Below, in pieces: positions 1 through 3,000 of a DNA stretch of 18,497 nt (its first letter is position 1; every line of letters begins with the position of its first letter). The position numbers were made by a program. This DNA comes from a virus: the UHGV virus genome UHGV-0380155. One strand, written 5' to 3'.

Positions 1-3000
1 GAAGGTAACCCGCAGGCGGTCAATGTTCGCGGACGTAATGGTGCGCGTCACCGGTTTTGCCTTCGTCACTTCCACGCCCAGTCCGGTTTCAGCTCCGGAG
101 GACTCAAAGCCTTCCGGTGGTGTCTGCTCCTGCTCCCCGGCGCGCCAGACCGCCGTCACACCGTGTATCACGGGATTGCCGTCCGTGTCCGTCAGTGGGG
201 TTTTGTTCACCAGAATACTCTGCAGTCCCTTCACCGGACCTTCTATCGGTCCCTCACCAATCGCATCAATCACACTCATCATCTGCGTGGATTTGAGATT
301 ATCCTTCGCCTCGCGCGGTGTGTGCGCCCTGCCGCCGCCTTTGCCCATTACATCACCTCTTACCGTGATAATTGTTCACTCACAAAAACAACAGGCACCT
401 CACCGGGTGCCTGCGTCATGACGGAATAAAATTTCTGAATATCTTCACATTTTCACACACTGACTGTGGCGCTTATAATTTCGCTGCGTTAGTGTTTTTT
501 TGCCCGAGTAACCAAAACAACTCCTTAACATTAATCTTCATTTGTCTGTCCCCGCAGCTCCGCGATCACTGCGGGATTTTTTTATGTTTTATCCCTGTCG
601 ACCAATAACCACCACCTTTCCGCCCCCGCCTTCATCACGGGTGCTGATGTCCTGAGAGATACGTCGTGAACCAACCAGCATTTCACCGTAGGGCACCGGC
701 ATCGGGTTGCCCTGGGCAATCATGTTGTCCAGTGAGGAAAAGTACGTGTTCTGTTTACCGTTATCCGTTGCGCGGTAATCCGGTGTTTTTGCCTTCGGGG
801 CCAGCATCTGGGCCACTCCGCCCAGTATCATGCTGGCACCCAGTGAAAACAGCATCGTGGTGGCAGAAAAACCACCGGCACTCAGGGCTGTACCCCATAA
901 CGCCATCGAGCCTCCGGCCGTGAAGAAAGAGCCCACGATGGCTGCCGCCCCCAGCACAATCTGCAGTCCACCCTTTCCGGCCCCGGCCAGTCGCGGCACA
1001 ATATGGATGACCGTTCCCTCACCCAGCTGTTCGTGAAGACGGGCGTACACCGCCTCCGGTGCCGTGTCATAACCGGCAATACGTATCTGGTACCAGCCTT
1101 CGTTCATCTGACGGCGAAAGCCCGGCACCTGTAACGACAGCGCCCGGATGGCTTCCGCTGCCGTGTTCACATACAGGCTGAGGCGGCGGCCAAATCGTTG
1201 TAAATCCCCGTGAAGGCAGATGCGTGCCAGTGGCGGTGACGCCAGACAGAATGCGTTCGTCGTTGCCATTTTTCGGAATACCTCTCCCGTTTACTCAGTT
1301 GTTCAGGCAGATGGTGAAGCAGCTCACCGTTGCCGCAGTAAATGGCGGCATGGTTCGGTACCGAAGCACCAAAGCAGCACAGCAGAATATCGCCCGCCTG
1401 TGCAGAGGACAGGGGCACCCGGTAAAAGCCGGTGACCGCCATATTGTCCAGGTAAAGGTTCTGACCGTTGCGCCACCAGTCATCCTCGCGATGAAAATCC
1501 GGCATCTCAGTCCCCGCCAGATGATAAGCATCCCGGAACAGCGTGTAACAGTCCGTCACCCCGTGCTCAAAGCGCCGTCCTGTCAGATGTGGCACACAGC
1601 GGAATTTGTGAATGTCACCCCGGCAGACCAGCCACCAGGGCAGTGCGCTTTTTATCTGCAGCCGCCGGTCAGCCTCGCTCAGCCAGGGCAGCCCACCGGG
1701 ATGACTGTGGACCAGCGCCACAATCTCCCCCTGCATCTCTGCCCGCAGCCAGTCTTCCGGCGCAATACGAAAATACGCCTCCGGCTCTGCGGAAATATTC
1801 ACACAAGGGATATACCGCTCCCCCTCCGGCGTTCTCACCACGAAGCCGCACGACTCCGCAGGCGCACACCGCCGGGCATGTGCCAATATATTGCTATAGA
1901 GCATGAGAACTCCTGATAAAAAACCCAGCCGAGGCTGGGTCATTTCGTTGGTAATCTGTTAGTAGTGATGCAGTGAAGGCGGCAACTCTTTGCTCTTAAG
2001 CCTTACCCATGCGGAAAGATTCGTTGGTCCATCTGGCTCATTAATATCAACATCTCGTGTGTGATTGATTAAAACGTCTCTCGCCATTCCAATAACATAC
2101 GAGAACTCATGGCCGTAGTTGTAGCACCTGTCAGAATAGTTCGATTGAATTTGCTTTAGCGCCGGATACAGTTCGCGGAATAATGCCTATGAGCGGTTGG
2201 CATAATCCCATAGCCATACAAGGCTGTTTGCTTCTTTTGCAGAAAGCTCGTTGGTTTTCTTCTCTTGTTTGCCAATGAACTCACCTTCAAGCACTACCCT
2301 GTGGATGTACTCTACGGCCAGCGGGATTTGTTCAATTGAAAGTTCATCAATGCTGTCAATACCAAAACGCTGATGAACCATATTGTATGCATCGTCATAG
2401 CGAAGTCCTTTCTTTCTTACCAGCATGTTTACTGCATCGCGTAGAGGTGTGCGTTCAGCTACTGAAGTTTTACCGCCAATAGCCTTCCTCTCTTGTGTGG
2501 TAGTAACCATTGCGTCATATGCACGGATAACCTTCAGCGCAAAGGCTGCGCTAATCCACATGGCGTAGGAGTAAACAAGCTCCTTGCACACGTAGGTGCC
2601 TCCGTAGCGACCCTTCTTAGAGTCCATTGGCTTCTTAATCTGCGATTCTGAAGAATTAAAGTTATCGCCATTTTTAAATACACACATCTGTGTATTTAGA
2701 ATTTCTTGAACTAACTCATTGGTTTGTTCGAGTCGCAGCCACGCAGCAGGCTCATGACGACGCTCTTTACCTGATGCCTTGTGCAGGTCATTAAGCGAGT
2801 AACGCCCCTCTGAATCCATATGAATCTTGACGTCTGAAATGGTGATGCTGTTAGTGCAATTTAATGTTGACTTTGCTAAACTTGCCATATCAATAATTCC
2901 TATCTGATTTGTTGATACCGAAGCCCCGACTGTTCCAGCAGTTGGGGCTTCAACTTTTTAGGCTGCGAATAAGACGCTGCACTATTTCTGAATTTAAAGA

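What the first reader, a model, noticed from the sequence alone, without database searches (positions are those of the whole stretch)
349..588. Insulated plus-strand transcription unit (candidate sRNA) in the I-J spacer
I and J are adjacent in lambda as recalled, but here a 240-bp spacer separates them. It carries a near-consensus promoter (TTCACA-16-TATAAT, 452-479) facing against the tail operon and a strong plus-strand terminator (551-583), predicting a ~100-nt RNA with no convincing ORF. A minus-strand terminator-like hairpin (381-413) sits between this unit and the J start. Prophages are known to encode regulatory sRNAs, so this may be a lysogen-expressed one.
Basis: partly seen in the sequence, partly recalled or inferred. 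Interest (0 to 1): 0.65.

Follow-up and report, generated by a model that had tools for sequence, protein, structure and literature searches.

The report
PasB small RNA gene in prophage

Summary
TTCACA-16-TATAAT (452-479, +) is the only >=11/12 sigma-70 match in the 18.5-kb window. A plus-strand terminator follows (stem 551-575, U-run 577-583). A late-strand hairpin sits at 391-414.

The unit is a known gene, PasB, which Pearl Mizrahi et al. 2021 found in EPEC E2348/69 by Hfq RIL-seq and Northern blot. By ungapped alignment their 83-nt RNA (NC_011601.1 1466343->1466261) maps to window 501-583, with 80/83 bases identical. Their Northern probe target is present exactly at 556-578. In that strain PasB depends on Hfq and has 37 RIL-seq partners.

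Homologues in O157 Sakai occupy the same I-J slot of Sp15, Sp14 and Sp11. Tree et al. 2014 detected these as EcOnc22/23/24 (~85 nt, destabilised without Hfq).

Lambda has only a 60-bp I-J spacer with its own hairpin, so the cassette (~426-588) is a moron inserted after I. Across 42 cassette versions the promoter, U-rich leader and terminator stem stay constant, while the middle comes in several mosaic alleles. No ORF is conserved.

The exact 5' end (predicted ~486, reported ~501), the seed and the regulatory outcome remain open.

The parts
426..451 (+). A/T-rich left edge of the conserved cassette (ATAAAATTTCTGAATATC...), UP-element-like. It includes the first copy of the TTCACA direct repeat (444-449).
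   Evidence: Sequence identity between cassettes with different left flanks begins here. A UP-element function is inferred only.
452..479 (+). Sigma-70 promoter: TTCACA (-35), 16-nt spacer, TATAAT (-10).
   Evidence: the only >=11/12 site in the window. The -10 keeps A2 and T6 in all 42 versions (TATAAT, AATAAT or GATAAT). The -35 was fixed by the search pattern, so its conservation is not an independent test.
486..500 (+). Predicted 5' leader GCGUUAGUGUUUUUUU, running from the inferred TSS (~486, 7 nt after the -10) to the reported 5' end. It is U-rich.
   Evidence: Conserved across all alleles, with T-run length varying from about 5 to 9. The TSS is inferred and not mapped. The published start (position 501) comes from RNA-seq coverage and an approximate Northern size.
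501..583 (+). PasB sRNA as published (83 nt), projected onto the window by ungapped alignment with E2348/69. 80/83 bases are identical, with differences at RNA positions 13 (C vs A), 27 (A vs C) and 33 (A vs G).
   Evidence: Table S6 of PMC8550237, the H14/L002 mapping, alignment A1, and the exact probe target at 556-578.
510..529 (+). Variable central segment. In this allele it reads AACCAAAACAACUCCUUAAC, an A-rich ARN-like run followed by CUCCUUA, which is complementary to the Shine-Dalgarno consensus UAAGGAG.
   Evidence: This is the region that differs between alleles A, B, C and D. It is mostly unpaired in the predicted fold. Complementarity to a model SD is -10.6 kcal/mol. Roles as a seed or Hfq distal-face site are inferred.
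543..550 (+). UGUCUGUC, a single-stranded stretch just 5' of the terminator and a candidate seed.
   Evidence: Zhu et al. 2026 propose the PasB seed lies here. It has an 8-nt perfect complement next to the ligation site of the RIL-seq partner pasA-IGR. That match is not significant on its own (67/500 shuffles).
551..583 (+). Rho-independent terminator: 7-bp stem CCCGCAG/CUGCGGG, 11-nt loop, then A and U7.
   Evidence: This is the only consensus structure across 16 diverse alleles. The stem is invariant and the loop ranges from 4 to 16 nt.
381..414 (-). Late-strand hairpin (414->391) plus U-rich run, lying between the cassette and J. It is an ancestral I-J spacer element, not part of the sRNA gene.
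   Evidence: z = -2.9. Nine sequence versions keep the stem through compensatory C-G/U-A/G-U changes. Lambda has an analogous hairpin plus UUUUGUCAUUU in its 60-bp spacer.
589..1269 (-). Tail assembly gene I. RefSeq homologues use the internal start, giving 589-1170. The stop codon lies 6 nt from the PasB U-run.
   Evidence: Pfam Lambda_tail_I, 66% identity to lambda I, and annotation of L001/L002.
1..348 (-). 5' end of tail tip gene J (ATG at 348-346), cut by the window edge.
   Evidence: Pfam FNIII-A_GpJ and gpJ annotation in L001/L002.

Best explanation
Window ~426-588 is a self-contained sRNA moron inserted just after the stop codon of tail gene I. It points against the late tail operon and encodes an allele of PasB.

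In a lysogen the late operon is silent. Host sigma-70 RNA polymerase would fire the near-consensus promoter (452-479) and stop at the intrinsic terminator (551-583). This gives a ~83-98-nt RNA that is unstructured apart from the terminator hairpin.

The RNA binds Hfq, which in E2348/69 is required for its stability. On Hfq it base-pairs in trans with host and prophage mRNAs, mostly in CDS or 5'UTR regions. The pairing most likely uses the single-stranded central and pre-terminator segments.

Shown by published experiment in E2348/69: the transcript, its strand, its approximate size, its Hfq dependence and its RNA-RNA partners. Shown here: identity of the locus, its anatomy, its conservation, and its presence/absence among syntenic phages. 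Inferred: the TSS at ~486, which segment is the seed, and that pairing changes target expression.
For: 1. Identity. PasB is NC_011601.1 minus strand 1466343->1466261, 83 nt, in PP6. That locus aligns ungapped to window 330-620 at 97.6%, which places PasB at 501-583 with 80/83 identity. The Northern probe target is exact at 556-578.

2. Experiment in E2348/69. A Northern band of matching size was seen, with higher expression in the non-activating condition. The log2 fold change in delta-hfq is -6.8 and -2.4 in the two conditions. There are 37 RIL-seq interactions, 30 of them with CDS or 5'UTR, and a U-tract of 7.

3. Independent detection of homologues. Sakai EcOnc22/23/24 are ~85 nt and destabilised in delta-hfq. 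They lie in the I-J spacers of Sp15, Sp14 and Sp11 on the strand opposite the tail genes. The first 23 nt of their probe match the PasB-like body exactly.

4. Anatomy. The promoter is unique in the window and the terminator is clear. No ORF is conserved. The only consensus structure is the terminator.

5. Moron nature. Lambda has a 60-bp spacer without the cassette. Lambda-type phages align about 190 bp shorter.

6. Spread. PasB-type sequence occurs at 1,210 places in 1,108 of 5,426 complete E. coli genomes. The whole cassette family occurs at 3,381 places in 1,711 genomes.
Against: Nothing was measured for this particular strain or allele, which carries three substitutions in the RNA body.

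The published 5' end (position 501) lies 22 nt downstream of the -10, not the usual ~7 nt. So either the real TSS is ~486 and the RNA is processed or the coverage-based estimate is off, or another start is used.

No regulatory effect of PasB on any target has been published (functional analysis is 'left for future work'). No seed motif was recovered from its RIL-seq targets.

The terminator stem is invariant, so covariation gives no independent support.
Confidence: 0.9

Rival explanations
1. PasB acts mainly in cis as an antisense RNA. It is perfectly complementary to the I-J intergenic part of the late tail mRNA. During lytic growth it could pair with that transcript, or collide with late transcription, and so tune processing or the I:J ratio. 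Its trans partners would be incidental.
For: Its orientation is convergent with the late operon. The terminator abuts the I stop codon, 6 nt away. The cassette sits in this slot in every locus whose context was examined.
Against: The complementary stretch stops more than 130 nt upstream of the J ribosome-binding site. The RNA was detected in uninduced lysogens, where the late operon is off, and it has 37 trans partners on Hfq. Lambda-type phages assemble tails without the cassette. The central segment is freely exchanged between alleles, which a purely cis role would not explain.
Confidence: 0.08
2. PasB is an anti-sRNA (sponge), like the prophage RNAs AgvB and AsxR. Its C/A-rich segment AACCAAAACAAC would mimic GcvB targets and titrate GcvB.
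For: The segment is C/A-rich and ARN-like, superficially resembling the GcvB target consensus CACAACA. The design of a constant 3' module with a variable upstream module recalls AgvB and AsxR. One RIL-seq partner is itself an sRNA-locus RNA, the pasA IGR.
Against: The duplex between PasB and the GcvB R1 region is no better than with shuffled PasB (fraction of shuffles at least as good 0.34-0.43). The AgvB positive control stands out at 0.01. There is no Rfam match to AgvB or AsxR. It does not sit at the PR' moron site. 30 of 37 partners are CDS or 5'UTR.
Confidence: 0.04
3. The spacer encodes a small protein on the late strand, the 22-aa ORF 541->473 (MKINVKELFWLLGQKNTNAAKL). It is preceded by GGGGA and would be translated from the late mRNA.
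For: An SD-like GGGGA lies 7 nt upstream. Two of the three differences from E2348/69 are synonymous in this frame.
Against: The ORF is absent from most alleles. It loses its ATG in alleles B, C and D, and T-run length variants frameshift it in v28, v29 and v36. The plus-strand RNA from this region has been shown experimentally.
Confidence: 0.02
4. The promoter and terminator in this particular copy are a silent relic or a chance pairing.
For: No expression data exist for this strain. The allele is rare, with only 10 records at >=99% identity.
Against: Promoter, leader and terminator are identical to those of the expressed E2348/69 copy. A promoter match of this quality is expected 0.0013 times in 240 bp.
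Confidence: 0.02

Closest known systems
PasB (E2348CN_0006), an Hfq-dependent sRNA of EPEC E2348/69 prophage PP6 (Pearl Mizrahi et al. 2021, PMC8550237; distribution surveyed by Zhu, Shabalina & Storz 2026, bioRxiv 10.64898/2026.05.13.724894)
   Same: Same slot between tail genes I and J and same strand relative to them. The promoter, leader and terminator are identical. 80/83 nt of the RNA are identical, and the Northern probe target is identical.
   Different: There are three substitutions in the RNA body, at positions 13, 27 and 33. Position 27 is the site Zhu et al. say distinguishes PasB from PasB-2. Expression and targets have not been measured for this allele.
EcOnc22/EcOnc23/EcOnc24 of E. 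coli O157:H7 Sakai prophages Sp15, Sp14 and Sp11 (Tree et al. 2014, PMC4104026)
   Same: Same I-J slot and orientation. Same terminator stem (CCCGCAG/CUGCGGG plus U7), the same UUAAUCUUCAU motif and the same AACUCC core. About 85 nt and Hfq-dependent.
   Different: Only about 68% identical across the cassette. The -35 and spacer have diverged, with the -10 reading AATAAT, and the central and pre-terminator segments differ. The published Hfq peak coordinates refer to an older genome version and could not be mapped exactly. In the three papers read, PasB and EcOnc22-24 are not linked.
AgvB/AsxR anti-sRNAs of Stx and lambdoid prophages (Rfam RF02702/RF02703)
   Same: Short, Hfq-binding, prophage-encoded sRNAs carried as morons, with a constant 3' module and a variable targeting module.
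   Different: They sit at a different site, downstream of PR'/Q rather than in the tail operon. There is no sequence or Rfam match. They are 51-60 nt long. PasB shows no GcvB complementarity above chance.
Phage 'morons' (Juhala et al. 2000, as cited in PMC4104026)
   Same: An autonomous promoter-gene-terminator unit inserted between two genes that are nearly adjacent in related phages. It is expressed from the repressed prophage.
   Different: The cargo is a non-coding RNA rather than a protein gene.

Membership tests
PasB sRNA | Sequence homology to the 83-nt PasB of E2348/69 (NC_011601.1 1466343->1466261) | tested here: met
   80/83 identical in an ungapped alignment, and 97.6% over the surrounding 291 bp.
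PasB sRNA | Contains the target of the published Northern probe AATCCCGCAGTGATCGCGGAGCT | tested here: met
   Exact match at window 556-578 (+), with 0 expected by chance.
PasB sRNA | Embedded in the phage structural (tail) operon, intergenic, and antisense to the flanking genes | tested here: met
   It lies between I (589-1269, -) and J (<1-348, -). The arrangement is the same in E2348/69 and as described by Zhu et al..
PasB sRNA | Rho-independent terminator with a long U-tract (U7 in Table S5) | tested here: met
   A 7-bp G+C-rich stem plus U7 at 551-583.
PasB sRNA | Expressed as a discrete ~83-nt RNA whose stability depends on Hfq | not testable with these tools
   This is shown only for E2348/69. 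The promoter and terminator here are identical to that copy.
EcOnc22/23/24 (Sakai) | Same genomic slot, strand and terminator, with a shared body motif covered by the EcOnc22/23/24 probe | tested here: met
   The slot and strand are shown. The Sakai body matches the first 23 nt of the probe exactly. The window shares the terminator and the UUAAUCUUCAU motif, but cassette identity is only 68%. It is therefore the same family but a different allele.
AgvB/AsxR anti-sRNA family | Match to RF02702/RF02703, location at the PR' moron site, and a 5' segment mimicking the target of a core sRNA | tested here: not met
   No Rfam hit at the gathering or E<=10 threshold. It is located in the tail operon. 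GcvB complementarity is at chance level, whereas the AgvB control is significant.
Phage moron | An autonomous promoter and terminator flanking extra DNA that is absent between the same two genes in related phages | tested here: met
   Promoter and terminator are confirmed. Lambda and lambda-type phages have a 60-bp spacer and align about 190 bp shorter.

The most novel reading that the evidence does not exclude
PasB, EcOnc22/23/24 and at least four further central-segment alleles are one mosaic sRNA family, which none of the three papers I read points out. A constant scaffold of promoter, U-rich leader, pre-terminator module and terminator occupies the I-J slot of lambdoid prophages and carries interchangeable targeting segments. 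Each prophage would then deliver a different host-targeting specificity, and about a third of complete E. coli genomes carry 1-7 copies. The family relationship and the mosaicism are shown here. That the swapped segments retarget the RNA is conjecture.
Probability: 0.45. Interest if true: 0.4.

Novelty: already known. Interest (0 to 1): 0.2.

Why it matters
Prophage sRNAs let a silent prophage rewire host gene expression. PasB is among the more connected accessory sRNAs on Hfq in EPEC, with 37 partners including virulence-related genes according to its discoverers. For this scan the value is calibration: reading raw sequence alone correctly picked out a real, experimentally validated sRNA gene.

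The modest additions here are these.
- PasB and the EHEC RNAs EcOnc22-24 belong to one family in one slot.
- The family is mosaic, with constant expression and Hfq modules and variable middles.
- The family is about three times more widespread than PasB in the narrow sense.
- The published 5' end does not sit where the only good promoter predicts, so TSS mapping would be worthwhile.

Tried and rejected
1. Rfam. No family covers the unit. The only gathering-level hit in the window is sar RNA at 2890-2955. Sub-threshold hits in 300-650 have E-values of 0.25-3.8 and are chance.

2. Coding potential. No ORF lies inside the plus-strand transcript. The 78-aa TTG ORF 372-608 reads through both promoter and terminator. 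The late-strand 22-aa and 28-aa ORFs are not conserved.

3. Anti-GcvB sponge. Rejected on duplex energies compared with shuffles, with AgvB as a positive control.

4. Covariation support for an RNA structure. None is available, because the only consensus helix, the terminator, is invariant.

5. Seed inference from a real partner. A long RNAduplex against the pasA-IGR partner was uninformative (p ~0.09). The 8-nt UGUCUGUC/GACAGACA complement next to the ligation site is suggestive but not significant.

6. Retrieving the list of PasB RIL-seq targets from Table S3. This failed because the text search cannot match tab-separated name pairs. The zero count for 'gcvB pasB' is therefore uninformative.

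7. Exact placement of the EcOnc22-24 Hfq peaks. The published coordinates are for an older Sakai sequence version. In NC_002695.2 numbering they would fall 22-83 nt from the J start, over the hairpin. The probe sequence places the RNA in the PasB-like body instead. Calibrating the offset with the EcOnc04 probe was inconclusive.

8. An alternative extended -10 (TGcGTTAGT, 485-493) that would explain a start at 501. Rejected because it lacks the -11 A.

9. Cross-species scan. Only E. albertii and one tiny 'Streptomyces' contig matched. This is consistent with the published restriction to Escherichia and Shigella.
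Full report
**Observation**

The window is the tail region of a lambdoid prophage, read on its minus strand. Pfam assigns I to 589-1269(-), K to 1167-1943(-), L to 4041-4739(-), M to 6277-6618(-), and the J N-terminus to <1-348(-). The I stop codon is at 589-591 and the J ATG at 348-346, so the spacer is 349-588.

The consensus scan finds TTCACA-16-TATAAT at 452-479 (+). It also finds a plus-strand terminator (full stem CCCGCAG 551-557 / CTGCGGG 569-575, then A and T7 to 583) and a minus-strand hairpin 414->391 followed by TGTTTTTGTG.

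The promoter is the only >=11/12 match on either strand of the whole 18.5-kb window. Dinucleotide shuffles give 0.1 such sites per window. No ORF fits inside the predicted transcript. The one factual slip is that lambda's I and J are not adjacent but 60 bp apart.

**Identity**

The 291 bp around the spacer match 1,111 E. coli records. One is EPEC E2348/69, at NC_011601.1 1466224-1466514 (minus strand, 97.6%).

Table S6 of Pearl Mizrahi et al. 2021 lists the sRNA PasB at NC_011601.1, minus strand, 1466343->1466261, 83 nt, in prophage PP6. Its Northern probe is AATCCCGCAGTGATCGCGGAGCT. The reverse complement of that probe occurs once in the window, exactly, at 556-578 (+). The ungapped alignment puts PasB at window 501-583.

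The window allele differs from the E2348/69 RNA at three positions: 13 (C for A), 27 (A for C) and 33 (A for G). The promoter, the leader and the terminator are identical.

**What is known experimentally**

In E2348/69 PasB was found by Hfq RIL-seq and confirmed by Northern blot at a size matching the RNA-seq coverage. It was more abundant in the non-activating condition. Its level drops in delta-hfq, with log2 fold changes of -6.8 and -2.4 in the two conditions. It has 37 RIL-seq interactions, 30 of them with CDS or 5'UTR regions, and a 7-nt U-tract.

The authors left functional analysis for later work. Zhu, Shabalina & Storz 2026 surveyed its distribution. [quoted passage not shown] They propose a seed just upstream of the terminator.

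**An earlier detection of the same family**

Tree et al. 2014 list three homologous Hfq-bound RNAs in O157 Sakai: EcOnc22 (Sp15), EcOnc23 (Sp14) and EcOnc24 (Sp11). They are on the plus strand, ~85 nt by Northern blot, and destabilised without Hfq.

In NC_002695.2 all three coordinates fall in the 240-bp spacer between the J and I homologues of those prophages, on the strand opposite the tail genes. The three Sakai spacers are identical to one another. They carry a PasB-like unit with the same terminator stem and U7, the same UUAAUCUUCAU motif and an AACUCC core. The first 23 nt of the EcOnc22/23/24 probe match this unit exactly. The remainder of the probe, as machine-read from the PDF, differs by a few characters.

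Cassette identity to the window is about 68%. The PasB papers I read do not make this link. Table S6 gives no EHEC homologue for PasB, and 'EcOnc' does not occur in Zhu et al..

**Origin as a moron**

Lambda's 60-bp I-J spacer aligns with window ~349-440 and lacks everything from the promoter to the terminator. Lambda-type phages (lambda, HK630, mEp460, ev017 and others) align to window 1-1300 in two pieces and are about 190 bp shorter. Stx-phage-type relatives align throughout. The window's I protein is 66% identical to lambda I.

The unit is thus extra DNA with its own promoter and terminator, inserted 6 nt after the I stop codon.

The late-strand hairpin (391-414) is not part of the insertion. 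Lambda has an analogous hairpin plus U-run at the same place. Nine sequence versions among relatives keep the stem through C-G/U-A/G-U exchanges.

**Family anatomy**

A scan of IMG/VR for the promoter core returned 120 loci, which gave 42 distinct cassette versions. The constant parts are:
- the A/T-rich left edge
- the -10, always with A2 and T6
- the leader GCGUUARUG-U(5-9)
- a UURAUCUU motif
- the terminator stem

The -35 was fixed by the search pattern, so it is not an independent test.

The variable parts are the central segment and the pre-terminator segment. The central segment comes in at least four types, and recombinants occur:
- GCCCGAGUAACAAAAACAACUCCUUAAC (PasB type)
- GUCGUGAYAUAAGAAUAAUUCCUUACAC
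- GCCCGAGCACCAGAAACAAAAAUAACUCC
- a type containing UUCUCUAUAG

The pre-terminator segment is either UUUGUCUGUC or UUCGUAACKCU.

RNAalifold on 16 diverse members predicts only the terminator helix. That helix has no covariation, because the stem never varies, and its loop ranges from 4 to 16 nt. The rest of the RNA is predicted to be largely single-stranded. This layout is typical of Hfq-dependent base-pairing sRNAs.

The whole family occurs at 3,381 places in 1,711 of 5,426 complete E. coli genomes, with up to 7 copies per genome. The PasB type proper occurs at 1,210 places in 1,108 genomes. In a one-genome-per-species scan only E. albertii matched, apart from a tiny, probably contaminant, contig.

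**Mechanism**

The shown and inferred steps are kept apart here.

Shown elsewhere, in E2348/69: a discrete plus-strand RNA ends at the terminator, it needs Hfq, and it is ligated on Hfq to many mRNAs.

Shown here: this window has the same gene with the same expression signals.

Inferred:
- Transcription starts about 7 nt after the -10, at ~486, giving ~95-98 nt. The published start (501) rests on coverage and an approximate Northern size and lies right after the U-run. So either the leader is processed away or the estimate is imprecise.
- Candidate pairing segments are the CUCCUUA stretch at 522-528 (complementary to the SD consensus; -10.6 kcal/mol with a model SD) and UGUCUGUC at 543-550. 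The latter has an 8-nt complement beside the ligation site of one real partner, but that is not significant alone, and it coincides with the seed proposed by Zhu et al.
- The A-rich run may bind the Hfq distal face, as Tree et al. argue for AgvB. The U-tail and pre-terminator U's would bind the proximal face.

**Rivals**

A cis-antisense role on the late I-J mRNA is possible but unsupported. The complementary stretch ends more than 130 nt before the J ribosome-binding site. The RNA is made when the late operon is off. Lambda-type phages also do without the cassette.

An AgvB-like anti-GcvB role is rejected on duplex energies. A late-strand micro-ORF is rejected for lack of conservation. There is no Rfam family for this RNA.

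**Verdict**

It is already known as PasB in EPEC, and members of the same family are known as EcOnc22-24 in EHEC. Interest is low for discovery purposes.

The residual value is fourfold: the unification of the two names, the mosaic allele structure, the unresolved 5' end, and the fact that no regulatory outcome has yet been demonstrated for any member.

Noticed in passing
window 2187-3984: A P22 immI-like module is inserted between tail genes L and K. It comprises an Ant-like gene (KilA-N + P22_AR_C, 2187-2888, -), a sar antisense RNA (RF00262, 67.6 bits, 2890-2955, +), an Arc-like RHH gene (2950-3150, -), a second Arc/Mnt-like RHH gene (3158-3448, +) and a ClpP-like gene (3448-3984, +). The closest genome for the PasB region (NZ_CP042892, L001) has K, L, M and H contiguous, without this module.
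   Followed up: partly
window 4938-6074 (-): An OmpC/NmpC-like porin gene (Pfam Porin_1, 475 bits) sits as a moron between tail genes M and L, inside the tail operon.
   Followed up: partly
window 381-414 (-); lambda 15445-15504 (L006 946-1005): A terminator-like hairpin plus U-run on the late strand, just upstream of J, is conserved with compensatory changes across lambdoid phages, including lambda itself. Its role (attenuator, mRNA-stabilising 3' end or processing site) is unexplained.
   Followed up: partly
L129 2260-2430 (Sakai Sp15), L130, L131: EcOnc22/23/24 of Tree et al. 2014 occupy the same I-J slot and belong to the same family as PasB. The PasB papers I read do not mention this. The published Hfq peak coordinates appear offset by roughly 100-130 nt relative to NC_002695.2.
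   Followed up: partly
L021 7758-8100: In many IMG/VR prophages the I-J spacer is 343 bp. Between the PasB-type promoter and J, the usual hairpin is replaced by about 190 bp of different DNA. This DNA carries a symmetric, bidirectional-looking terminator hairpin (AAAGAGAAACCCCGGTATC...GATACCGGGGTTTTCTTT).
   Followed up: partly
L037 (IMGVR_UViG_2534681940_000025): One copy of the cassette is interrupted right after the -35 region (after CACAAACTGA) by unrelated DNA that begins an ORF (ATGACTAAAAATACACG...). This is probably an IS element that inactivates the sRNA gene.
   Followed up: no
L128 2136-2269 (NZ_JBHTEB010000006.1): A 3.4-kb contig labelled Streptomyces flavalbus carries the cassette pattern. 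This is most likely contamination of that assembly by E. coli or lambdoid-phage DNA.
   Followed up: no
window 444-457 and 494-500: The promoter contains a direct repeat, TTCACAttTTCACA. The T-run in the leader varies from about 5 to 9 T between copies, which might affect start-site choice or Hfq binding.
   Followed up: no
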